A DNA stretch of 42,848 bases from a virus (taxonomy: Duplodnaviria > Heunggongvirae > Uroviricota > Caudoviricetes). The translations under genes and the position numbers were made by a program. Below are positions 2,795-17,549 of the stretch, one piece after another (position 1 is the stretch's first letter; every line of letters begins with the position of its first letter). The notes under the pieces were generated by a model, which was not told the origin of the DNA, did no database searches, and saw nothing but the letters and a program-made list of their open reading frames with translations. The stretch covers positions 1 through 42,848 of IMG/VR virus record IMGVR_UViG_2563366985_000002; one strand, written 5' to 3'.

Positions 2795-5387
2795 TTGCAT
2801 ATTCCTTAGCCCAGCGGGGCAGTGATAATGTCTTAATAGCTGGCCATTCATCGGTATTCAGGCAGTCAGACAGGGTTCGCAGATTGCGGTGATATTCCTG
2901 TTGACCTGCCAGTTTTGCTTCTTCGCCCATCATGAAAATTTCAACCGGATAACGTCCGCATTCAATAGTTGTGCTGGCAACCAGAAAAACGAAAGTTGGC
3001 TGCACTCCAAACTGTGCTTCATAACCGTCACTGTAGAATGCATCCTGAACGTGATAGCGGTAGTCGTAATAAGCGGTTTTGAATCGTTGAATATCCGCCG
3101 TAGTTTTCACGTCCATGATCCAGTGAAATTCAGGGATAATTTTGTCCGGACGGCACCGACACAAAATTCCTGTTTCAGGATCTTCCCAGTAAATTGATGA
3201 TTCAGCGTGTCCGGCGCTTTCAACAAGCCATTGCCCCAGCGGCAAAGCCATAACGCTTTGATACATGAGTTCAATTTTCCGGCCTTCTTCCGCAGTGATA
3301 ACCGTTTTTCCTGTGCTTGCGCATTCCATCAGAAACGCTTTCTCTTCTTCTTTTCCGGCGTTTGTACGGCGGTTAAATTCAGGTGCTACGATAAAGCGGT
3401 TACTGAATTCTTCCGGTTCAAGTACCCGGCAGTGGAAAGCAGTTCCTAAATCGAGCGTTTTTGTCTTTGTGGTGTCCACGGGGGCATTTTTACGCCACAA
3501 ATATAGTGCCGGAGTATCAGCAATGTCATCGAGCTGAGACTTACTGATACCGGGACCCGCGTGGTAATTCTCATTCGAAATTCCGTAATAAATACCTGGC
3601 TCTATGTCTTCTACGATTACGGGATCTGCGACTTCGCCAGTTTCATCACTGCAATCGCGATGCGGATCGCTGCCAGCATTCTCATTGTGCGGATGTTCAG
3701 CGCCTTCCATTTCCTCCGGATCATTTTCCTTAGCTTCAACCTGACTCTCTTCATCGAATGTTTCCTGGTATGTTGCGTCGCCCATCACCGCACCACAGTC
3801 AGGGCAGTTATCCCCGCCAGTCTGGCCGCAGGCATTGCAGGCTATTTCCGGTTCCTGTTGCACTACTGGCTCAGGTTGATTCATATCTGGGCTGGTTTTT
3901 TCCGTTTCTGGCTGGTTCTGGTACACACAATCGCGAGTCTGGATCCCCTTTACCCATTTCGGATCGTTCGGGTCGCTAATTCCGTCAACAAATTCACCAC
4001 GTGATGCAGCAAGCAATTTATCGTCATCGACAGGATTTTTTGATGGAATGTTTTTCCGGGCTTCATGGAGTTCTGCCCGCAGTTCCTGATATTTCGCATC
4101 AACAGAATTTACCTGTGACTGAGCATCCAGCGGCTGCGTGTCCTGATGATGTTCAGTTGCGTCCGGTTCCATTGTTTCAGCCTCTCCCTGTTCAACTGCC
4201 GTTGTTCCAGATGGTTGCGGTTTTTCTTCATCATCCTGTTTTCCTTCTTCTGTTACTCGCTGCGGCATCGGGGCAGAGGAGCGACCGCAGGCAATATCCA
4301 CGATTTCCGGATCAGGGTTGGCATGATCGGTTTCAGTCAGTACTTTGTTCAGATATTCAGTGACGTGCGCGGGGATGACCTCGATCCCAATTGGTGCTTC
4401 TTTTACGGACGCAACCACGATGGCGCGGGAATAATCCAGCCCGCCAGGCATGGTGATGAATTTGTCGCGGAAAACAGAAAAGGGCGGTTTATTTTCAGCG
4501 ATAATTTCCTCAATGCGTTTAGCGTGTGCCGGATGAAGGTTATAGATGTCCAGATCCATTGAACGGGCCAGTACGCCAGTGGCTACGTCGCGCGCCAGTG
4601 ACGTCAGATCGTGTACGAAACCTTCGCCGCGATCGGTGAGGTTTCCGCCGCCAGCATTAGCACCGGAAGCCGTGCGAGTGATGTGTGAAACACGATTACC
4701 CTTCATCCACTCTTTTGTCAGCAGTCCTCGATCGGTGTAGTCAGCGTTCAGGTATGCTTCGAAAAAAGCAGTTATCAGTCCCAGGTTTGAATTACCAGGA
4801 TTAGGGAAAACTTTGTCAGTGTCACGAACCAGTTTGTGGAGTTCGCGAATTTCCAGCGGGTCGAGCAGGCTGGTTTTGTGGGAAACAGCCAGGGCAGTAA
4901 CAGCCGGTAGTTCTTCAGCCCGAGCAATGTGTAATGCCTGGAGTCCGTCGCGTGAAACGTGCGTTACCGGTTTTTCGCTGCCGTGTTGAGCAAGCCAACG
5001 AATGGGCAGTTCCTGGCCAGAAATTGGGAGTAGCATATTCTCCTCAATCTCAGTCATGTCTTCGCCGTTGACGTTGGTATTGCCTTGATAGTGAGCGTTG
5101 TCTGGTGCTGCTCCCGGTTTTAGTTCCCATGTCATGGAGTCTTTGCTGAGTTGATAGCGTTCACTCCAGGTAAAATCGATCTCACCTTCAGCGGGCAGGT
5201 CATTAACGACAGGAAAATTCGTGGCAACAGCTTTAAAATAGCTGCTCAGTTTTTTACCTGACTTAACGATCAGGTAGTCCAGAGTGGCACAGGTCGATTC
5301 AAAATCGTTGCTTGCCCACAGGACGACGTCAGGTTCACCGGATGATTTTTTCGCTTTCCGTAACAGGAAGAGTGGTTTTGTGCTCAT
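2787..5387 (-). CDS. recE: Exodeoxyribonuclease VIII (RecE)
   Basis: 866-aa ORF recognised as RecE; directly upstream of and overlapping recT. Confidence 0.9.
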
Positions 5388-5495
5388 TGTTTTTTAACCT
5401 CAACTCAGATTAAAATTCGTTTTGTTCAGTGAATGATCTTGCCGGATACACACTGTTCATAGCCTGCGCCATACGCAGGCTATTTCTTTCAGATT

Positions 5496-5765
5496 TCACC
5501 TTTTAATTTCATTGCAATTAGAGTTGCCAGAAATTCGGCTTTTTTTTTCTGCGGGCAGATTCTTTCCGATATGCACCAGGCACATTTTTTTGACACCTTC
5601 ATCAAGTGTTTTTACGTTGCCTGATGGACCATCGATATCAACCACAGTGAATGGGGTTTCTTTATTTTCTGTTTTAATTACGTAGCCAATGCGCTTTCCT
5701 TCCAGATTCACCTCGTGAACAATGTCATCGGTAGTTACAACAGTGGCTTCATAATTGGTAATCAT
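5496..5765 (-). CDS. racC: RacC-like prophage protein
   Basis: Translation MITNYEATVVTTDDIVHEVNLEGKRIGYV... recognised as RacC N-terminus; C-terminal tail after a T9 run at about 5536-5544 looks different from what I recall, so a length variant or frameshift is possible. Confidence 0.6.
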   Translation of the reverse strand: MITNYEATVVTTDDIVHEVNLEGKRIGYVIKTENKETPFTVVDIDGPSGNVKTLDEGVKKMCLVHIGKNLPAEKKSRISGNSNCNEIKR

Positions 5766-5839
5766 GTTTTTCTCCTTAATTAAGGTTGAGCGAATACCTG
5801 CCATTTCTGGCATAAATTCAGTTTCGAATAGTCAATTAA

Positions 5840-6010
5840 TTAAAGTTCATGTGCCATCTGGTCTTTTTCGGCACAAGCTTCACTGCAATATTTTCTCGGT
5901 TCGTCTTTTGATAAAATCCCGTGCATGAAGTGAAGCATTCTTTCAATAGCTTTGCTTTCTTCAACGTCTTTTTTGCAAAGGTGGTAAGCACATTTTATTT
6001 TCTTAGTCAT
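5840..6010 (-). CDS. ydaE: Small zinc-ribbon-like protein YdaE
   Basis: Hand-translated 56-aa [59 protein letters not shown] (absent from the ORF track because under 60 aa); its ATG overlaps the kilR stop (ATGA). Confidence 0.6.
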   Translation of the reverse strand: MTKKIKCAYHLCKKDVEESKAIERMLHFMHGILSKDEPRKYCSEACAEKDQMAHEL

Positions 6011-6231
6011 CACCATGACTCCGCCTTTACAGGTAAACCATCACGACCGAGGAAGACTTTAATCATGCGGTCAGTAATGAATGTTTTTGTGGTCAGGTTA
6101 CGAATATATAGTTTTCGCTTTTTAATATTGTTTGCCGAGGCAATATATGTCCGGCCTTCATGAAGAACATAATCGCCAGGAGTCACACACTGACGTGGTA
6201 TTTCATCAGTTCCGAAGTGATGTGCAATCAT
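6010..6231 (-). CDS. kilR: KilR, FtsZ-targeting cell-division inhibitor
   Basis: 73-aa product [40 protein letters not shown]... recognised as Rac KilR; start trimmed from the 77-aa ORF. Confidence 0.75.
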
Positions 6232-6672
6232 AATTATCTCCATTTTTACAAATGAACTTTGTTGATGCGGTGTCTGGTGCCTCCAGGTGACTGCAACCAG
6301 TTAACAATTACAGTCGGCTTTCCCACCCAAACCAATAAGGACTAACATGACTTTTAACTGTGCCACGTGCGCTTAGCCGCATTCACCGCATCACAAAATT
6401 TACTTTAAAAAGGGCGGACATCAGCCGAACTTCAAGAAAAAAACTGATGCCGCCAGGACTACACACAGCAATGTCGTTATTTACAACCGGAGGCGCACTC
6501 CCACCATTTAAATTTAACAGACAAGACCGACTCTTTATGGATATCGGAAATGCGCCTTCGTGTTGTGCCCGGTTTTATTTCACCACCTCCGGGCTTCGGT
6601 GGTCTCGGCTATACCCCTACAGCGAGAGCTTGTGTTAACATTTCAATACCCTTACAGTTGAGAGTTATTGAT

Positions 6673-10753: not shown

Positions 10754-11515
10754 ATGGAGACTGTTTTTGACGCACTGAAAGCAATGGGAAAAGCCACATC
10801 CATAGAACTTGCTGCGCGACTTGATATCAGTCGTGAAGAAGTGCTGAACGAACTATGGGAACTGAAAAAGGCTGGTTTTGTTGATAAAAGCGCGTACACC
10901 TGGCGTGTGGCTGATAACAATGTTCAGCAGGAACAGCCAGCGCAGGCAGAACTGCCGGAAGAAATCACCACAGCAACAGTAGCGAAAATCTCAGAGTGCG
11001 ATTTAACCGCGACGATTGAACAACGAGGACCACAAACGGCTGATGAGCTGGCTACATTGTTTGGTACCACATCACGCAAAGTGGCTTCAACGCTGGCAAT
11101 GGCAATCAGCAAAGGTCGTCTGATTCGCGTAAATCAGGGCGGTAAATTTCGTTACTGCATACCGGGCGATAATTTACCAGCAGAGCCGAAAGCAGCATCG
11201 GTAGCGGAAACTGATGGTAAGGCCTTTCCTCAGACCGCAGGTGTTGCGTTACCAGTACAGGAGGCTGCAACACAGGAAGATATTAAAACAGAAACTGTGG
11301 CGGACATTGTGCAGTCGCTGCCATCGTTTACTGAAACGCGAGCGGATGACCTGGTTTTACCATCACTGCATATGGCAAACCGCGAACTGCGTCGGGCGAA
11401 AAATCATGTCCAGAAGTGGGAGCGTGTCTGCGCCGCGCTGCGTGAGTTGAACAAGCACAGGGATATTGTACGACAGATTACTGATTCTTCCCGCCATGTT
11501 GCATCGGAAAAGTGA
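10754..11515 (+). CDS. ydaW: YdaW-like protein, apparently intact
   Basis: ORF starting [13 protein letters not shown]... with GGAGAAA Shine-Dalgarno; follows ydaV; full-length here. Confidence 0.6.
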
Positions 11516-11530
11516 TTGCCGGAGGCACCT

Positions 11531-11908
11531 ATGGCAAAAGTATTTACACCAGAAGAGCGAGAAAAAATTAAAGGACAGGTTGTTGAACTTGTACCTCTGA
11601 GCGGTCGCGAGACGTTACGGGCTCTGGAGGCTAAAACCGGTGCATCAAGGTATTACATAAGCACTCTCGCCAGAGAACTAGTCGCCAGTGGTGATGTTTA
11701 CAATTCAGGCTACGGATTATTCCCGTCTGAGCAGGCGCGTAAAGACTGGCAAAACGCCCGCAAAAAACTATCAAGGACAAAGGTGAAGAAACCGGTTGTG
11801 GTTGATCCTGACCTTATCTGGTCATTACCAGACGGAGAAATACGCCGTTACGACAGGCGTCTGAACATAATCTGTCGCGAGTGCCTGAAGAGTGAAGTTA
11901 TGCAGTGA
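11531..11908 (+). CDS. Hypothetical nin-region protein
   Basis: ORF with GGAGG Shine-Dalgarno 5 nt before the ATG (MAKVFTPEEREKIKGQ...); no family recognised by eye. Confidence 0.45.
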   Translation: MAKVFTPEEREKIKGQVVELVPLSGRETLRALEAKTGASRYYISTLARELVASGDVYNSGYGLFPSEQARKDWQNARKKLSRTKVKKPVVVDPDLIWSLPDGEIRRYDRRLNIICRECLKSEVMQ

Positions 11909-12198
11909 ATATTGGCATTTTATCAGTGAATCATGCTGCATTTATAGGTATTTTTAGTTTAAATAGCATTGGTTCATATGTAAATTGACATTTTTATGGT
12001 ACAGGGTAGAACTAGTGTGGTTGCCTGCTTTGTGCCAGCTGCGGACATTACTTAAACAAATGCTGTATTATTTTATCGGTAAAGGTGGTAAAGAGTGGCC
12101 CTGAAGTGTCAAGATAATTATTAGCAGTATATATCATGCAAGAACCCATTTAATTTAGGCATGAAATTAATTTTAAAAAAGTAGAGGATTCCAATTAT

Positions 12199-13881
12199 AT
12201 GGCCAAACAGTTTATGTTAATGGAACCAAAAAATGAGAACTTCAATGAATTAATTGGAGGGTCAAATAAGTACATTGTTCCTAGATTCCAGCGAGACTAT
12301 GCTTGGGATGTAGAACAATGGGAGGACCTTTGGAGTGATGTTACAGCACTTGATGATGAAGGTTTTCATTATATGGGATATATAGTTCTTCAACAAAAAG
12401 AACAGTATCAACATGAGGTCATTGACGGTCAACAACGATTAGTAACCTTGTCGATTATAGTTCTAGCAGCCATGAAAGCCATTAAAAACTTGATAGATAA
12501 AGGAGAGGAGGTTGAACAAAACACAGAGCGACTTGATGCAATAACAAAGACATTTGTGGGTAACAAAAACTTCGTTTCATTAAAGGTGGTTAGCAAGCTA
12601 GATTTAAATAGAAATAATAAAAGATATTTTCAAAGCATCTGTTCAAACTTAGAAGCTCCTAATACTCGTGGAACTACATCTACAAATAAGCTACTCAAGA
12701 AATGCTTTGATTTTTTCCAAAAGAAGGAGTTCGGTAATACCGGCGCTGAGATCGCACAGTTTATTGCCGATTTTTCTTCGAGTATGGTTTTTACAAAAAT
12801 AGTTGTTCAAGATGATTTAAATGCATACAAAGTATTTGAAACTTTAAATGCGAGAGGAGTCCAGTTATCCACGCCAGATCTCTTAAAAAACTATTTGTTT
12901 TCGATAGTAACTAAGGATGAGAAAATCGGAGATGAGGAATTAGATGAGTTAGATGAGCAATGGTCGGAGATTATCGATCAGTTGGGAGAAAGCAATGTTT
13001 CTGATTACATTAGGTATCATCATAATTCTCATAGAAAAATGGTCACAAAAAATAATTTATACACTTCAATGAGAAAAGTAATTACAACCCCTAAAGAAGC
13101 ATACGATTATTTAAGATCACTGATAAATTCCGCACCTATTTATGCATCATTGATTAACCCGAATGATTCATGGTGGGCAGAGCAAGATACTAAATACAAG
13201 AAGGCCATTCATTATCTGAACGGCATTAGACTCTTTAATATTAGACAGCCATTAACAGTATTGCTATCAGCTTTTAATCAATTCAATCCAGATGAGTTCG
13301 TCAGCCTGACTCGTTATTTATATATTTTATCAATTAGATACAATGTTATTTGTCATTTATCACCAAGTGAACAAGAAAGCATGTATAATCAAATTGCGAT
13401 TAAGATCTCCAATAAGGAATACAAGAGAGCTAGCAATGTGAAAAATGGGGAGGAGTTTAAGAGGTTATATCCTGATGATAACGTGTTCTTTAATGCTTTT
13501 GAATTTCATCGAATGCCAAGTAGACAAACAGCCAAAAAAATTAGATTTCTCTTGGCTGAAATTGAACAATATCTTGGTAATAATTGCGATCATGAAAAAG
13601 TTACACTCGAACATATTTGTCCATTTAACCCAGAGAAGGGGTGGTGCAATTCGTTTGGGGAGGGGGTTAATGACGTAAAGGATAGGTTAGGAAATATGGT
13701 TTTGATGGATAAAGATAATCTAAAAAGAGCTTCATTTGAAGTGAAGAAAAATGAATATGGAAAATCAAAGTATAAATTAGCGGCTAAGATTACACAGTAT
13801 CCTGAATGGAATTTAGAGGCTGTCAATGATTTTCAAAAATGGATGTCGGAACAAGCAGTAAATGTATGGAAAGTTGGTTAA
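12199..13881 (+). CDS. DUF262/DUF1524 two-domain nuclease, GmrSD-family-like (putative type IV restriction / anti-phage defence)
   Basis: 560 aa; N-terminal DUF262 signature (FQRDYAW ... VIDGQQRLVT); C-terminal His-Me finger-like DUF1524 region (EKVTLEHICPF...N); gene markedly AT-rich relative to flanking prophage DNA. Confidence 0.75.
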   Translation: MAKQFMLMEPKNENFNELIGGSNKYIVPRFQRDYAWDVEQWEDLWSDVTALDDEGFHYMGYIVLQQKEQYQHEVIDGQQRLVTLSIIVLAAMKAIKNLIDKGEEVEQNTERLDAITKTFVGNKNFVSLKVVSKLDLNRNNKRYFQSICSNLEAPNTRGTTSTNKLLKKCFDFFQKKEFGNTGAEIAQFIADFSSSMVFTKIVVQDDLNAYKVFETLNARGVQLSTPDLLKNYLFSIVTKDEKIGDEELDELDEQWSEIIDQLGESNVSDYIRYHHNSHRKMVTKNNLYTSMRKVITTPKEAYDYLRSLINSAPIYASLINPNDSWWAEQDTKYKKAIHYLNGIRLFNIRQPLTVLLSAFNQFNPDEFVSLTRYLYILSIRYNVICHLSPSEQESMYNQIAIKISNKEYKRASNVKNGEEFKRLYPDDNVFFNAFEFHRMPSRQTAKKIRFLLAEIEQYLGNNCDHEKVTLEHICPFNPEKGWCNSFGEGVNDVKDRLGNMVLMDKDNLKRASFEVKKNEYGKSKYKLAAKITQYPEWNLEAVNDFQKWMSEQAVNVWKVG

Positions 13882-14003
13882 TCTATCAATAAAACATAGG
13901 CGTAAGTGGGATGTTTTACTGACAGTTTGATGAGTCATGGATATCCTGCTAGGCCTACAACATGTCTTCAATTATATCATTACGAGATAGGCTCGATATT
14001 AAC

Positions 14004-14029
14004 AAGTCCGCTCCTCGCTCAAAGCGGAC
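14004..14029 (+). repeat. 26-bp repeat copy 1 (AAGTCCGCTCCTCGCTCAAAGCGGAC), contains GTCCGC/GCGGAC hairpin
   Basis: Matches 15529-15554 at 22 of 26 positions; lies 3' of the DUF262/DUF1524 gene. Confidence 0.6.
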
Positions 14030-14408
14030 CTTTCTTTTGCATCTACCTTTTACTTTTCCCCTTTCTTCCGTATCTACTTTTCCCATGTATACGATTAATC
14101 CACCCAGATACGACTTTAGCATTTTTCAGCTCTGCCGAGAAGAAAAAGGCGTGATTGTCAAAATTTAACGAAAACAAGCAGATTGTTGCGGATGGCGATT
14201 TTTTGTTTTCTTGGATGAAAAATGTGCATATTTTTGCTAAAAGTGGTTAAATATGTCTAACGGCGAATTAGCGACGAAGCGATACTCAGATTTTCAACCA
14301 GAACGTTCGTCTGGCCTTAGATAGAATGGACATTTTTGGATCCACTTTGTCCACGGAGGGCCATATAAGTGCCAACGTTTTAAAAAAGCTACTCAGGAGT
14401 ATTTATAA

Positions 14409-15458
14409 ATGGGATTTATTTCACAACTATTCAATTTGCTTACCTCCAGGATAACTTCTGCAAAAACAATGACGCCTTCAAGTTTGCATGAGTTAACAGC
14501 TAACATAACTCCTAAACTCAAGAAACAAAACGGAAATATATCAATCGAAAACGATTGGCTTACTATTGATTCTCCTTATTTTTTTGGACAAGCGTATCTG
14601 TCTGCAAACAAACATTGGGTTGTAGGCTGTAGTGACTTTGATGGCAATGGAAGGGGAGGGCACCGGGAAAGTGGATTTGGAACAGTTGTTTTAGTTAATA
14701 AACCAACTTTTCGTATCCTTCATAAGCTCAGAACTATTGCCCGACCATTTAATGCTGCTGTCGCTGACACAGGTGATTATATTGTTCATGACGCTGGATT
14801 TGGTTCTGCGCTGCAAGCTGATTTGATTGCTATTGATGTTGAAGGAAATGAAAAGTTTAGACGTCATTATGAAGCAAATATCTATAATATCGGAATTTCT
14901 CATTGTGGTAAATACGCATCGGTTCAGACAGCCGCAGCGCCCGGTAAAGATGGAAATATCCTTGAGGTAATAAATCTGTGGTCAAAAACAACAATATTTT
15001 CCATTAAACCTGAGTATGGATGGGCTGATAGTTATTTCTTCGATCTCGATGAAAATGGGGGGCTAAGATCGCTGAAAGTGAAATGCAAAAATATTGGATA
15101 CTTCAGATACACTGCCATCGGTATTCCCATTGACGTGGAAGCGTATAAAGATGCTTGTCTATATAAAGGAAATTTCAACCTTAAAGTAGAGGCCGCGAGA
15201 GCGCTTTTAAGAGAACATCCCAGTGAGAAGAATGCTCAAAAAGCATTGAAAGCAATTGAAATGGCTCTTAATGAAGGAGCGAAAGACCGAACTGACTGGG
15301 CTGCAGCCGCATTTCGCATCAAAGGTGAAGCAAATGATTTACTTGGTAACTTTAGTGATGCTCTTGATGCCTATGAAAAAGCTTTGAGCTTTAATCCAAA
15401 AATAGGGGTTCAGAGACGAGTTAATGCTCTGCGTAAAAAATTACAGAGATTAAAATAA
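14409..15458 (+). CDS. Hypothetical protein, beta-rich N-domain with C-terminal TPR-like repeat
   Basis: 349-aa ORF with AGGAG Shine-Dalgarno; C-terminus AAAAFRIKGEANDLLGNFSDALDAYEKALSFNPK fits a TPR repeat; no catalytic motif recognised. Confidence 0.6.
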   Translation: MGFISQLFNLLTSRITSAKTMTPSSLHELTANITPKLKKQNGNISIENDWLTIDSPYFFGQAYLSANKHWVVGCSDFDGNGRGGHRESGFGTVVLVNKPTFRILHKLRTIARPFNAAVADTGDYIVHDAGFGSALQADLIAIDVEGNEKFRRHYEANIYNIGISHCGKYASVQTAAAPGKDGNILEVINLWSKTTIFSIKPEYGWADSYFFDLDENGGLRSLKVKCKNIGYFRYTAIGIPIDVEAYKDACLYKGNFNLKVEAARALLREHPSEKNAQKALKAIEMALNEGAKDRTDWAAAAFRIKGEANDLLGNFSDALDAYEKALSFNPKIGVQRRVNALRKKLQRLK

Positions 15459-15528
15459 AACCAGCAAGTATCACGATAGAGAAATTTTTTCGGAACTACC
15501 TGTAGTGATTATGTTTCTATATACACCA

Positions 15529-15554
15529 AAGTTAGCTCCTCGTTCAAAGCAGAC
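15529..15554 (+). repeat. 26-bp repeat copy 2 (AAGTTAGCTCCTCGTTCAAAGCAGAC)
   Basis: Matches 14004-14029 at 22 of 26 positions; lies 3' of the 349-aa gene. Confidence 0.6.
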
Positions 15555-16032
15555 TAGATGTTGGCTTCCGTCGGACTTGGCGTATTTAAAGAAGTGCTGG
15601 TAGTGACTGGTTGTTGTATTCCATTTCTACAGAACAAAATCACAGAAACTATACCCAATAGTTGTATTGAATCACTGACGAGACAGCCTCATATTTATCA
15701 GGGCAGGTGCACGTCCAATACAGGAGGTTGTCGTGCTGGTTCTCAAGTGTGCGTTGGCTATTGCGGCTGTGGTGGCAATTTATTGTCTTGCTATTGTTCT
15801 TATGGATCGCCTTTCTGATTGATTTCATATTGGCGAAGTAAAGGGGGTTAAATAGTATGGCTGCGGGGGCTTGAGGCTATCTGCCTTGGGCATGAAAACC
15901 AAAGGCAGATAGAAAAAGTCCCAGTTGATATTACGCATCCGGCAAGAGGCTTAACATTAATCTGGGGCCCAATCTATGCCTTACAAACGTAGGTTAGTCT
16001 CTTACGTGCTGAAAGGCAAGAAGAAGCGGGCT

Positions 16033-16188
16033 ATGAAGCAGCAAAAGGCGATGTTAATCACCCTGATCGTCATCTGTTTAACCGTTATAGTGACGGTACT
16101 GGTAACGAGGAAAGACCTCTGCGAGGTACGAATCCGAACCGACCAGACGGAGGTCGCTGTCTTCACAGCTTACGAACTTGGGGAGTAA
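16033..16188 (+). CDS. hok: Hok/Gef-family type I toxin (membrane peptide)
   Basis: 51-aa product MKQQKAMLITLIVICLTVIVTVLVTRKDLCEVRIRTDQTEVAVFTAYELGE, closely resembling HokD/RelF; the six-frame ORF carries a 19-codon in-frame upstream extension. Confidence 0.8.
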   Translation: MKQQKAMLITLIVICLTVIVTVLVTRKDLCEVRIRTDQTEVAVFTAYELGE

Positions 16189-16200
16189 GAGGACCAGCGG

Positions 16201-16210
16201 GGAGAAATCC
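16201..16210 (+). repeat. IS186 target-site duplication, left copy (GGAGAAATCC)
   Basis: Identical 10-mer abuts both IS186 termini. Confidence 0.75.
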
Positions 16211-17549
16211 CATAAGCGCTAACTTAAGGGTTGAACCATCTGAAGAATGCGACGCCTCGGTGCCTCGTTAAGACGATGCCTCGCGTTCTTCAATTGCGTT
16301 TTGTAGGCTGTCAGGGATACTGTCCCACGAATGGCCACCTGTAAGCTCCAGATGACCATTTTTGTTATTCTCCACAACGAGTTAGTTCTTCTTTTCGGAT
16401 CCGGCACTTCTGGGGGGGAAATCCAGCGATGGCTGGATTATGTCGTCAATTAAAAATGCGGCGAGTAGATTAGCAAATATCCACGCTTTCGCGAGTTCAG
16501 GTTCCTTTGCACGCAAAGCATCCAGGTGCAGCAAACTTTTGAGCCGCTTAAAAGCCAGTTCAATTTGCCATCGCAGACGGTAACAATCAGCCACTTGCTC
16601 TGCTGAATATTCATCTTCCGGTAATGATGTTAGCAATAGCACATGGCCCGCTGCTTCCAGCGTTTCCGCCTGAACTACTCGTCCTTTTCGACGATTCTCG
16701 CTGAGCAGTCGGGTTTTACTGATTAATGCTTTTTCGGGAGGAAGTGATACGGCAATGAGACGTGCCGGAAAGGGAGCTCCGGCTTTTTTATTACCTGAAT
16801 TGCCTATCATTACAGTGGTTTCACCGTTCTTACCGCAATCCAGCCCGCGCAGAAAACCCATCATGTCAAAGCGCATTCCTTCTGCAGTTAACCAGCGCAA
16901 TCCTCGCCAGTGAACCCGGACGATATAATCAGCTTCTCCAAAAGCAAGTGAGCGGATACATTCGGGACGCGAACCGAATCCCCGGTCAGCAATGCGTATC
17001 TCGTCTGCCGTTTGCGCAAATCGGTCCAGCCGTTCAGCGTCTCTGCTGTCGGTTAGCTCAAAATCAGTGAACTGACAGGTATGAGGATCATATCCCATAT
17101 GTAGTCGCCATTCAGCGCTGCCGCCCCCGGGCGCACTGATTGCTGTTCCATCGACAAGACGCAATCTCTTTCCGCTTGTACAACCCGTAACTGCGGCGCG
17201 TACAGCAAGTGTTTGTGCGGCAAGTATGCCAAACCAGTCGGCGGCATTCCGCAGCCGCTTCAGGAGAGCCACGTCAGATAATGTTGCAACGTCATGGAGC
17301 TGAGCCCATGCAGTGACTTCACGTAATGACATCCCCCCGGGGCCGTAAGCCAGCCCCAGACGTAGCAGAGTTGCAGCATCACGAATTTCGCGGCGGCGGG
17401 TTAGAGCCCCGGCATTACGTGCCGAAGTATCCAGTTCTTCGGGCTTACCAATATGGGCCAGAATTGCTGACCAGTTATCGTGAGAGTAATTCATCGGCAC
17501 GTTAAATCATATCAGGCGTAATACCACAACCCTTAAGTTAGCGCTTATG
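16211..17549 (-). mobile_element. IS186 (IS4 family), complete copy
   Basis: 23-bp perfect terminal inverted repeats CATAAGCGCTAACTTAAGGGTTG at 16211-16233 and reverse-complemented at 17527-17549; encloses the transposase ORF; flanked by a 10-bp direct repeat. Confidence 0.85.
16382..17500 (-). CDS. insL: IS186 transposase
   Basis: 372-aa ORF (start possibly 2 codons in, at MNYSHDNW) recognised as IS186 InsL transposase. Confidence 0.9.
   Translation of the reverse strand: MPMNYSHDNWSAILAHIGKPEELDTSARNAGALTRRREIRDAATLLRLGLAYGPGGMSLREVTAWAQLHDVATLSDVALLKRLRNAADWFGILAAQTLAVRAAVTGCTSGKRLRLVDGTAISAPGGGSAEWRLHMGYDPHTCQFTDFELTDSRDAERLDRFAQTADEIRIADRGFGSRPECIRSLAFGEADYIVRVHWRGLRWLTAEGMRFDMMGFLRGLDCGKNGETTVMIGNSGNKKAGAPFPARLIAVSLPPEKALISKTRLLSENRRKGRVVQAETLEAAGHVLLLTSLPEDEYSAEQVADCYRLRWQIELAFKRLKSLLHLDALRAKEPELAKAWIFANLLAAFLIDDIIQPSLDFPPRSAGSEKKN

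What the first reader, a model, noticed from the sequence alone, without database searches (positions are those of the whole stretch)
11909..15560. AT-rich cargo island in the nin-equivalent region carrying a GmrSD-like nuclease and an unknown TPR protein: candidate prophage-borne anti-phage module
Between the replication genes and the Q/lysis module lies a block whose composition is visibly different from the rest of the prophage (long A/T runs, A/T-ending codons). It encodes a 560-aa DUF262/DUF1524 protein (12199-13881) and a 349-aa protein with no recognisable catalytic motif but a C-terminal TPR-like repeat (14409-15458). DUF262/DUF1524 is the architecture of GmrSD, BrxU and SspE, which cleave modified or invading DNA; the block is missing from the Rac prophage layout I recall for E. 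coli K-12. A two-gene defence system in which the TPR protein acts as sensor or regulator is plausible but unproven.
Basis: partly seen in the sequence, partly recalled or inferred. Interest (0 to 1): 0.85.

Follow-up and report, generated by a model that had tools for sequence, protein, structure and literature searches.

The report
Two separate prophage defence cassettes
The AT-rich island in this Rac-like E. coli prophage is real, but it is two independent cargo cassettes: one carries HEC-06, an anti-phage nuclease already tested experimentally, and the other an uncharacterised beta-propeller/TPR gene that does not travel with it.

Summary
In detail: ORFs, domains, low GC and island limits (11909-15560) are as described.

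- **The 560-aa gene is already known.** It is a GmrSD-family protein, identical over all 399 residues I could compare to HEC-06. Payne et al. 2024 showed that HEC-06 defends E. coli as a single gene.
- **The 349-aa protein is not its partner.**
  - None of 28 non-redundant homologue loci outside the E. coli island has a GmrSD-like gene within about 10 kb.
  - No partner gene of any kind is conserved next to these homologues.
  - Close HEC-06 homologues sit alone on a plasmid and in a P4-like element.
  - An 88%-identical homologue forms its own cassette in a metagenomic contig.
- **What the 349-aa protein is.** It has a disordered N-terminus, a WD40-like beta-propeller and three TPR hairpins, with no catalytic domain. 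Rare relatives fuse the whole module to VRR-NUC or DEDD nucleases. I therefore read it as a stand-alone sensor or adaptor-type candidate defence gene; this is not proven.
- **Unexpected extra.** The cassettes are bracketed by two related 24-nt hairpin motifs, L and R. These also flank varied, largely defence-type cargo in lambdoid and P2-like phages (including P2 fun(Z)) and in non-phage genomic islands. The tandem R|L junction occurs in 40% of complete E. coli genomes and is never annotated.

The parts
11909..15560 (+). Whole low-GC cargo island in the ren(DUF977)-hok slot of a Rac-like prophage
   Evidence: GC is 0.363 against 0.47-0.49 in the flanks. Backbone similarity to other prophages ends at about 11905 and resumes at 15561. 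The block is present in 31 of 5426 E. coli genomes.
12023..12046 (+). L-type boundary motif, degenerate (GCCTGCTTTGTGCCAGCTGCGGAC, preceded by GTGGTT), 152 nt upstream of the HEC-06 start codon
   Evidence: It has 3 mismatches to the L consensus GTCCGCTnTGTGCCAnnAGCGGAC. The same GTGGTT+L arrangement occurs in phages Evi and Tritos and in E. coli O177. This segment is conserved in L089, which carries different cargo.
12199..13881 (+). HEC-06: single-gene GmrSD-like (DUF262 NTPase + DUF1524 His-Me/HNH nuclease) anti-phage protein, 560 aa
   Evidence: Pfam GmrSD_N and GmrSD_C hits. PADLOC HEC-06 model PDLC04154, E 4.3e-221, full length. DGQQR at residue 76, EHICP at 471, and S46/Q79/R80/E471/H472 all in place. 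Identical over 399/399 aa and 398/399 nt to the tested representative WP_096851903.1.
14006..14029 (+). R-type boundary hairpin, perfect copy (GTCCGCTCCTCGCTCAAAGCGGAC), 124 nt after the HEC-06 stop codon; closes cassette 1
   Evidence: Found as repeat D2. Zero matches expected by chance in the window. Covariance model score 43.8 bits. Predicted fold energy -9.5 kcal/mol.
14030..14352 (.). 323-nt spacer with no counterpart in the L007 TPR cassette; holds a 22-nt direct repeat (14029-14050 and 14060-14081); no L-type motif detected
   Evidence: Homology between L007 and the window starts at 14353. No L or R element was found here.
14409..15458 (+). Uncharacterised 349-aa protein: conserved N-terminal MGFISKL helix, disordered linker (about 12-39), beta-propeller (44-235), three TPR-like hairpins (243-348)
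15531..15554 (+). Degenerate R-type motif (GTTAGCTCCTCGTTCAAAGCAGAC), 72 nt after the TPR stop codon and 6 nt before the backbone resumes; closes cassette 2
   Evidence: Second copy of repeat D2, 85% identical to the first. It has 4 mismatches to the R consensus. Homology to L007 ends exactly at 15554.
15865..16188 (+). hok/sok type I toxin-antitoxin; the conserved backbone to the right of the slot, not part of the island
   Evidence: Rfam sok, 92.4 bits. Pfam HOK_GEF, E 1.3e-20.

Best explanation
The island is a tandem array of two independently acquired cargo cassettes. They sit in a variable slot of lambdoid prophages, between the Ren-like DUF977 gene and hok/sok.

**Cassette 1 (about 12023-14029)** carries HEC-06, a self-sufficient GmrSD-family enzyme.
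- Shown by others: HEC-06 reduces plaquing as a single gene, and defence needs both the DGQQR motif of the DUF262 domain (the paper's nucleotide binding/hydrolysis mutants) and the EHICP nuclease motif of the DUF1524 domain.
- Inferred: the DUF262 NTPase domain controls the nuclease domain, which cuts incoming phage DNA, probably DNA with modified bases such as that of T-even phages.

**Cassette 2 (14353-15554)** carries an unrelated 349-aa protein made of a beta-propeller and TPR repeats, with no catalytic domain.
- It is a solitary, mobile cargo gene with no conserved partner.
- Inferred: it is expressed from the prophage and acts by protein binding, as a stand-alone sensor or adaptor. It would recognise a phage or host protein and either block infection directly or recruit a nuclease in trans. 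In a few relatives the same module is covalently fused to VRR-NUC or DEDD nucleases.

The two genes are neighbours by insertion history, not by function.
For: **HEC-06 identity**
- Pfam and PADLOC hits.
- Identity to the tested allele, with all mutated residues in place.
- HEC-06 is reported to block T4. A distant Bacteroides homologue is modification-dependent: it defends against T4 but not T4-GT7.

**Independence of the two genes**
- 28 non-redundant TPR-homologue loci outside the E. coli island contain no GmrSD-like ORF and no DGQQR-type motif.
- They share no conserved neighbour beyond phage backbone genes.
- In Morganella lambdoid prophages the TPR homologue sits alone in the equivalent slot, just upstream of DUF1367.
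- HEC-06 homologues are solitary on a Salmonella plasmid and in a Klebsiella P4-like element.
- A distant HEC-06-family gene sits in its own L-R cassette in L105, followed by a different cassette.
- L007 carries L-TPR-R as a separate cassette.

**The slot is variable.** Other cargo occupies the same position in L020, L021 and L022 and in phages Evi and Tritos.

**TPR protein as candidate defence sensor**
- Structure.
- Homologues occur in prophages, viral contigs and defence-type neighbourhoods.
- Fusions to VRR_NUC (twice) and to RNase_T/DEDDh, which matches PADLOC candidate PDC-S48.
- Proteins 5' of R hairpins hit 112 PADLOC families; proteins 3' of them hit 5.
Against: - No experiment here. 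I could compare only the first 399 of 560 residues with the published HEC-06 sequence.
- The modification dependence of this exact allele is inferred from family behaviour and from a 22%-identical homologue.
- The TPR protein hits no defence model. 3 of 7 large neighbours of distant homologues are unrelated to defence: AcrB, an autotransporter and a DUF11 surface protein.
- The nuclease fusions are rare: 3 of the 10 longer-than-usual family members I scanned, out of the 150 best family hits listed.
- The GmrSD HMM used for the co-occurrence test was built from close homologues (at least 63% identity). It could miss very divergent DUF262 genes, although the DGQQR motif scan also found none.
- A lineage-specific functional link between the two genes in these 31 genomes cannot be excluded by comparative data alone.
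Confidence: 0.78

Rival explanations
1. One reading: HEC-06 and the TPR protein form one two-gene defence system, in which the TPR protein senses infection or regulates the nuclease.
For: - The genes are adjacent, on the same strand, and have similar low GC.
- They are always together in the genomes that carry the island. In LR-45 the HEC-06 gene is truncated by a deletion.
- Relatives of the TPR module are fused to nucleases, so the module can work with a nuclease effector.
Against: - HEC-06 is active alone.
- Co-occurrence is found only in one clonal block of at least 99% identity.
- 0 of 28 other TPR loci have a GmrSD gene, and HEC-06 homologues lack a TPR neighbour.
- The genes are 527 nt apart, with a cassette-end hairpin between them.
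- The fused nucleases are VRR-NUC and DEDD, not GmrSD.
Confidence: 0.07
2. The TPR/propeller gene is not a defence gene. It is instead a phage accessory, counter-defence or host-takeover protein of the nin region, expressed in the lytic cycle, or a lysogenic-conversion factor unrelated to phages.
For: - In E. coli and Morganella it lies in the early-right (nin) region, on the same strand as the lytic genes. In Morganella it is next to Dam and Lar anti-restriction genes.
- It has no PADLOC hit and no catalytic domain.
- Some homologue neighbourhoods are not defence-like.
Against: - It occurs outside phages, next to helicase/nuclease defence-type genes.
- It occupies L-R cassettes whose other cargo is rich in known defence genes.
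- It is fused to nucleases typical of defence effectors.
Confidence: 0.3
3. The low-GC block is a single ancestral unit, for example a remnant of another mobile element, and the hairpin motifs are simply intrinsic terminators of morons with no role in mobility.
For: - The window's perfect R copy is followed by a T-rich run and was flagged as terminator-like.
- From my own knowledge: morons are classically described as flanked by a promoter and a terminator.
- Stem variation shows few compensatory changes.
Against: - Most R and L copies have no T-run after them.
- The 24-nt sequence, including its 10-nt loop, is conserved amid 80 different upstream and 57 different downstream contexts.
- The same motifs occur in unrelated phage backbones: the lambdoid nin region, the lambda-like stf region, and the P2 G-FI slot.
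- The two cassettes have separate homologues elsewhere.
Confidence: 0.2

Closest known systems
HEC-06 (Payne et al. 2024, bioRxiv 10.1101/2024.01.29.577857; PADLOC PDLC04154)
   Same: - Same protein over the 399 residues I could compare, same length (560 aa), and the same motif numbering (S46, Q79, R80, E471, H472, EHICP).
- Full-length PADLOC hit at E 4.3e-221.
- The tested gene came from an E. coli strain (MOD1-EC1687), and its DNA is 398/399 identical to the window.
   Different: Nothing detected. The family was defined from genes embedded in Hma and type I R-M systems, whereas here it sits in a prophage cargo slot. The last 161 residues could not be compared.
GmrSD / BrxU / SspE (type IV restriction-like DUF262-DUF1524 enzymes)
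   Same: Domain architecture, the DGQQR NTPase motif and the His-Me/HNH nuclease motif. The family targets modified or invading DNA.
   Different: - No RLFDS motif.
- Not embedded in BREX, and no Ssp genes seen.
- Only weak N-terminal hits to SspE models.
- BrxU and SspE are not detected by sequence in the PDB search. Only 9jfl, a DUF262 protein, is found, at E 1.2e-17.
- The paper reports 23.7% identity to BrxU over 11% alignment coverage.
P2/P4 and other prophage defence hotspots (Rousset et al. 2022, PMC9122126); morons of lambdoid phages
   Same: A fixed slot between conserved phage genes that holds interchangeable, low-GC, mostly defence cargo.
   Different: This slot lies between the Ren-like DUF977 gene and hok in Rac/lambdoid phages. 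The cassettes carry conserved L and R hairpin motifs that Rousset et al. do not mention.
Sensor-effector defence proteins with repeat sensors (e.g. Avs/NLR-like TPR or WD40 sensors)
   Same: The propeller plus TPR repeat module is a plausible recognition surface. Rare relatives fuse it to nucleases.
   Different: No STAND/NTPase domain and no effector in the 349-aa protein. No sequence relationship to any PADLOC model.
Cassette-boundary elements: integron attC sites; PeSL cassettes of T4-type phages (Arbiol et al. 2010, PMC2839356)
   Same: Short conserved stem-loop sequences flank interchangeable gene cassettes and occur in tandem arrays.
   Different: The sequence is different. There are two distinct end types, L and R, that share a stem but differ in the loop. 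No dedicated integrase was identified. The hosts are temperate enterobacterial phages and islands.

Membership tests
GmrSD family (Pfam PF03235 + PF07510) | N-terminal DUF262 (ParB-like NTPase) and C-terminal DUF1524 (His-Me/HNH nuclease) in one polypeptide | tested here: met
   GmrSD_N 129.9 bits (cut-off 33.2) and GmrSD_C 63.8 bits (cut-off 23).
GmrSD family | DGQQR NTPase motif and a catalytic (D/E)H nuclease motif | tested here: met
   DGQQR at residue 76 and EHICP at residue 471.
HEC-06 (PADLOC candidate, validated by Payne et al. 2024) | Full-length match to the HEC-06 HMM and sequence identity to the tested protein | tested here: met
   PDLC04154 at E 4.3e-221 over residues 1-559. 399/399 aa identical to WP_096851903.1 over the part printed in the paper's supplementary table.
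HEC-06 | A single gene is sufficient for phage resistance | not testable with these tools
   Reported in the paper.
BrxU | RLFDS nucleotide-binding motif and embedding in a BREX locus | tested here: not met
   RLFDS is absent. The neighbours are prophage genes, not BREX genes.
SspE | Full-length similarity to SspE and association with the SspABCD phosphorothioation genes | tested here: not met
   Only residues 15-111 match a 766-position SspE model (56.6 bits). No ssp genes are annotated around the island in SE11.
   0 of 28 non-redundant TPR-homologue loci outside the E. coli island carry a GmrSD-like ORF within about 10 kb. 0 of 5 HEC-06-homologue loci (two distinct contexts) carry a TPR homologue.
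TPR repeat proteins | Tandem 34-residue helix-turn-helix repeats | tested here: met
WD40-like beta-propellers | Blades of four antiparallel strands arranged around an axis | tested here: inconclusive
Avs/NLR-like STAND defence proteins | Central STAND NTPase between an effector and a repeat sensor | tested here: not met
   No NTPase domain in Pfam and no PADLOC hit. At 349 aa the protein is fully accounted for by the propeller and TPR parts.
Integron-type cassette arrays (considered for the L/R hairpins) | An adjacent integron integrase with attI, and attC sites with conserved R/L core boxes | tested here: not met
   No integron integrase is annotated near the slot in SE11, Evi, Tritos or phage 899. 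The motif sequence is unrelated to the attC core GTTRRRY (from sequence inspection and my own knowledge).

The most novel reading that the evidence does not exclude
Two linked readings remain open.

1. **L and R hairpins as cassette-exchange sites.** The two motif types share a 7-bp stem but have different 10-nt loops. They may be the end sequences of a cassette-exchange system that is undescribed in the literature I could search. Exchange would work either through short homology arms used by phage recombinases such as RecET or Red, or through heterospecific sites of an unknown site-specific recombinase. This would move defence genes between unrelated temperate phages (lambdoid, P2-like) and genomic islands.
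2. **A new stand-alone immunity protein.** The beta-propeller/TPR gene carried in such cassettes may be a non-enzymatic anti-phage protein.
Probability: 0.3. Interest if true: 0.8.

Novelty: already known. Interest (0 to 1): 0.42.

Why it matters
- **For the finding as posed, little changes.** The defence gene is HEC-06, which is already in PADLOC and already tested. The proposed two-gene system does not hold.
- **The 349-aa protein is a worthwhile candidate.** It belongs to a compact, uncharacterised family of about 290 clusters at 50% identity. The family rides in phage cargo cassettes and is occasionally fused to nucleases, and it is cheap to test.
- **The L/R hairpins could be a discovery handle.** They give a sequence label for cargo cassettes in enterobacterial phages and islands, and the tandem junction occurs in 40% of complete E. 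coli genomes. If they mark exchangeable units, scanning between L and R would be a direct way to harvest new defence genes. It would also address how hotspots are refilled, which Rousset et al. 2022 left as further experimental work for the P2/P4 hotspots.

Tried and rejected
- **Family libraries.** NCBIfam found nothing for either protein. PHROGs gave only an unnamed family for HEC-06 and nothing real for the TPR protein.
- **Phage collection.** No phage record carries the island DNA.
- **RNA families.** Rfam found only sok in 11500-16400, and nothing at the hairpins in five other loci.
- **Fold searches.**
  - The afdb50 library was unavailable.
  - BFVD returned only generic WD40 and BTB proteins of giant viruses.
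- **Conserved partner for the TPR gene.** The large neighbouring ORFs turned out to be unrelated to each other, and only partly defence-like.
- **Covariation in the hairpin stems.** Changes are mostly one-sided and few are compensatory, so a functional secondary structure is not demonstrated.
- **Promoter and terminator scan of the island.** Promoter-like sites are no more frequent than in shuffled sequence.
- **Literature.**
  - Text searches for the motif sequences found no paper.
  - Nilsson et al. 2004 (Mol Biol Evol 21:1) and Odegrip et al. 2006 may describe the P2 variable loci and their flanks. Neither is held in the library. The novelty of the hairpins is therefore unverified.


Full report
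**1. Observation**

- The region from 12000 to 15500 has 32-39% GC, against 47-53% on either side.
- By gene, HEC-06 is 34.3% GC (GC3 31%) and the TPR gene is 39% GC (GC3 28%).
- The context is a Rac-like prophage at ttcA: intR, xisR, recET, kilR, sieB, ydaS/T/U/V, DUF1627, DUF977, then the island, then hok/sok, an IS, DUF1367, DUF1364 and DUF1133.
- PHROGs names the DUF977 protein 'Ren-like exclusion protein'.
- A query made of the two flanks shows that similarity to thousands of other prophages ends at about 11905 and resumes at 15561.
- The island itself is rare and clonal: 31 of 5426 complete E. coli genomes, all at 99% identity or more.

**2. The 560-aa protein is HEC-06**

- It has Pfam GmrSD_N and GmrSD_C above threshold.
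- It has a full-length hit to PADLOC model HEC-06 (E 4.3e-221).
- Payne et al. (bioRxiv 10.1101/2024.01.29.577857) tested one HEC-06 representative as a single gene with its native promoter in E. coli. It reduced plaquing. Q79A, R80A, E471A and H472A abolished defence, and S46A did not. The nuclease motif is EHICP.
- The window protein has S46, Q79, R80, E471, H472 and EHICP at 471.
- The paper's supplementary table gives the representative as WP_096851903.1 from E. coli MOD1-EC1687. The printed part of that sequence is 399/399 aa and 398/399 nt identical to the window.
- A later study states that HEC-06 blocks T4. It also shows that a 22%-identical Bacteroides homologue defends against T-even phages but not T4-GT7, so that homologue is modification-dependent.
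- The protein is distant from BrxU and SspE. It has no RLFDS motif. Only weak N-terminal SspE hits appear. The one solved relative by sequence is a DUF262 protein, 9jfl.

**3. The 349-aa protein**

- It has no PADLOC, NCBIfam or PHROG family.
- An AlphaFold model built on 34 homologues has a mean pLDDT of 87:
  - a short, conserved N-terminal helix (MGFISKL...);
  - a disordered linker to about residue 39;
  - a 17-strand beta domain at 44-235;
  - six helices at 243-348.
- No catalytic family appears.
- A word-indexed search found 44 clusters. An exhaustive profile search found 287 clusters at E<=1e-30, nearly all 300-350 aa.
- Among the 10 longer-than-usual family members I scanned, three carry the whole module followed by a nuclease. 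Two have VRR_NUC. One has RNase_T/DEDDh plus BRCT, and its nuclease part matches PADLOC candidate PDC-S48.

**4. Do the two genes belong together?**

*Neighbourhoods of TPR homologues:*
- Morganella lambdoid prophages carry the homologue alone in the equivalent slot, after DnaB, Dam and Lar and just before DUF1367.
- It sits in a Pandoraea prophage beside a SocA_Panacea gene.
- It sits in a Pectobacterium AlpA island.
- It sits in a Serratia island between a 2138-aa NACHT-like protein and an Mrr_cat/TOPRIM protein.
- It sits in a phage-like contig next to Arc, Bro and Ant genes.

*Quantitative test:*
- With further loci from genome and viral collections, I called ORFs in 45 loci.
- I searched them with an HMM of the HEC-06 family and with a DGQQR motif.
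- The only hits were in copies of the E. coli island itself.
- All-against-all clustering of neighbours in 32 non-redundant loci found no conserved partner. Only phage backbone genes shared among lambdoid prophages clustered.

*From the other side:*
- HEC-06 homologues at 86% and 80% identity are solitary. One is next to a relaxase on a Salmonella plasmid, and one is at the cargo end of a Klebsiella P4-like element.

*Mixed evidence on defence association:*
- Of seven large neighbours of distant homologues, four are defence-like: a PDC-S37/Hhe-like helicase-nuclease, a DrmD/BrxH-like SNF2 protein, a ResIII helicase and an LmuB-like SMC ATPase.
- The other three are not: AcrB, an autotransporter and a DUF11 protein.

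**5. Cassette boundaries**

*In the window:*
- A repeat search found a 26-nt direct repeat at 14004-14029 and 15529-15554, one copy after each gene.
- The core is a hairpin, GTCCGCT-N10-AGCGGAC, with a conserved loop.

*In other phages and viral contigs:*
- The 106 unique copies lie in 80 different upstream and 57 different downstream contexts. 89 of the 106 are intergenic.
- A covariance model and a mismatch scan then revealed a second, related motif, GTCCGCTnTGTGCCAnnAGCGGAC (L-type). It lies upstream of cargo in the same orientation as the first motif (R-type), which lies downstream.
- In 119 viral loci there are 78 uninterrupted L-to-R pairs, 427-4108 nt apart (median 1575). There are 33 tandem R|L junctions, mostly with 16-18-nt spacers.

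*Layout in the window:*
- L (12023-12046, 3 mismatches), then HEC-06, then R (14006-14029, perfect).
- Then a 323-nt unrelated spacer, then the TPR gene, then a degenerate R (15531-15554), then the backbone at 15561.

*Layout in L007:*
- In metagenomic contig L007 the 88%-identical TPR gene has its own L and R.
- Nucleotide homology to the window runs exactly from 14353 to 15554.

*The same L-cargo-R layout elsewhere:*
- phages Evi and Tritos, and E. coli O177, in the same slot;
- a P2-like phage, between the tail-fibre assembly and sheath genes;
- a lambda-like phage, after stf;
- phage P2 itself, where fun(Z), annotated in the record as blocking growth of T5, is bracketed by an L and a degenerate R.

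*What the cassettes carry:*
- 110 proteins encoded within 3.5 kb 5' of R copies hit 112 PADLOC families. These include PifA, HEC-06, NsnA, PD-T4-2, RmrA, PD-T7-1, DarG and several PDC candidates.
- 110 proteins encoded 3' of R copies hit only 5 families.

*Prevalence:*
- The 73-nt tandem junction matches 2183 of 5426 complete E. coli genomes. No annotated feature lies under the match in any of the 25 listed rows.
- Some copies are in non-phage islands.

*Limits of this evidence:*
- Stem variation shows few compensatory changes, and most copies lack a T-run. Neither a structural RNA nor a terminator role is established.
- Not all cargo in this slot has the motifs (L020 and L022).
- No Rfam family and no paper text matches the motifs.
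- Two older papers on the P2 variable loci that might describe them could not be read.

**6. Conclusion**

- The island is a two-cassette array.
- Cassette 1 is the already known single-gene defence HEC-06. Cassette 2 is an independent, uncharacterised propeller-TPR gene.
- The best-supported reading of cassette 2 is a stand-alone recognition or adaptor protein with a probable but untested role in phage exclusion.
- The two-gene model is not supported.
- The L/R boundary hairpins are the most interesting by-product and deserve separate study.

Noticed in passing
window 12023-12046, 14006-14029, 15531-15554; also L007, L021, L176-L179, L182 (phage P2 15335-15358 and about 17431-17454), L057-L175: Two related 24-nt hairpin motifs bracket cargo cassettes in unrelated temperate phages and genomic islands. 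L is GTCCGCTnTGTGCCAnnAGCGGAC and R is GTCCGCTnnTCGCTCAnAGCGGAC. They form tandem R|L junctions with 16-18-nt spacers. Cargo on the 5' side of R is rich in known defence genes. The tandem junction occurs in 2183 of 5426 complete E. coli genomes and is not annotated in the listed records.
   Followed up: partly
protein ids P0243, P0293, P0262 (relatives of window 14409-15458): Rare relatives fuse the complete propeller-TPR module to C-terminal VRR-NUC or DEDDh(+BRCT) nucleases. This suggests the module is a sensor that can be wired to nuclease effectors.
   Followed up: partly
window 14029-14081: A 22-nt direct repeat (CCTTTCTTTTGCATCTACCTTT and CCTTTCTTCCGTATCTACTTTT, 31 nt apart) lies immediately after the R hairpin. 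It sits in a 323-nt spacer that has no counterpart in the L007 TPR cassette. Its function is unknown.
   Followed up: no
window 16382-17500 (- strand): An IS4-family transposase gene (annotated IS421-like in strain LR-45) is inserted between hok/sok and the DUF1367 gene. SE11 has an IS3-family element at about the same place. Other strains have IS1 insertions inside the island, between the two cargo genes.
   Followed up: no
L002 (E. coli LR-45) 3901-6494: A deletion joins recE to the middle of the HEC-06 gene. It leaves a 147-aa HNH fragment next to an intact TPR gene. This is a natural HEC-06 knockout that keeps the TPR gene.
   Followed up: no
L021, L022, L020, L176, L177 (same slot in other prophages and phages): The DUF977-hok slot holds unrelated cargo in other prophages and phages. 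Examples are pairs of hypothetical proteins of 184-333 aa, a 444-aa protein in phage Tritos, and a regulator plus an acetyltransferase pair in phage Evi. None of these was characterised here.
   Followed up: no
window 15558-15818: An 86-aa Cys/Gly-rich ORF overlaps the conserved backbone just upstream of hok/sok. It has no Pfam or PHROG hit and is probably not a gene.
   Followed up: no
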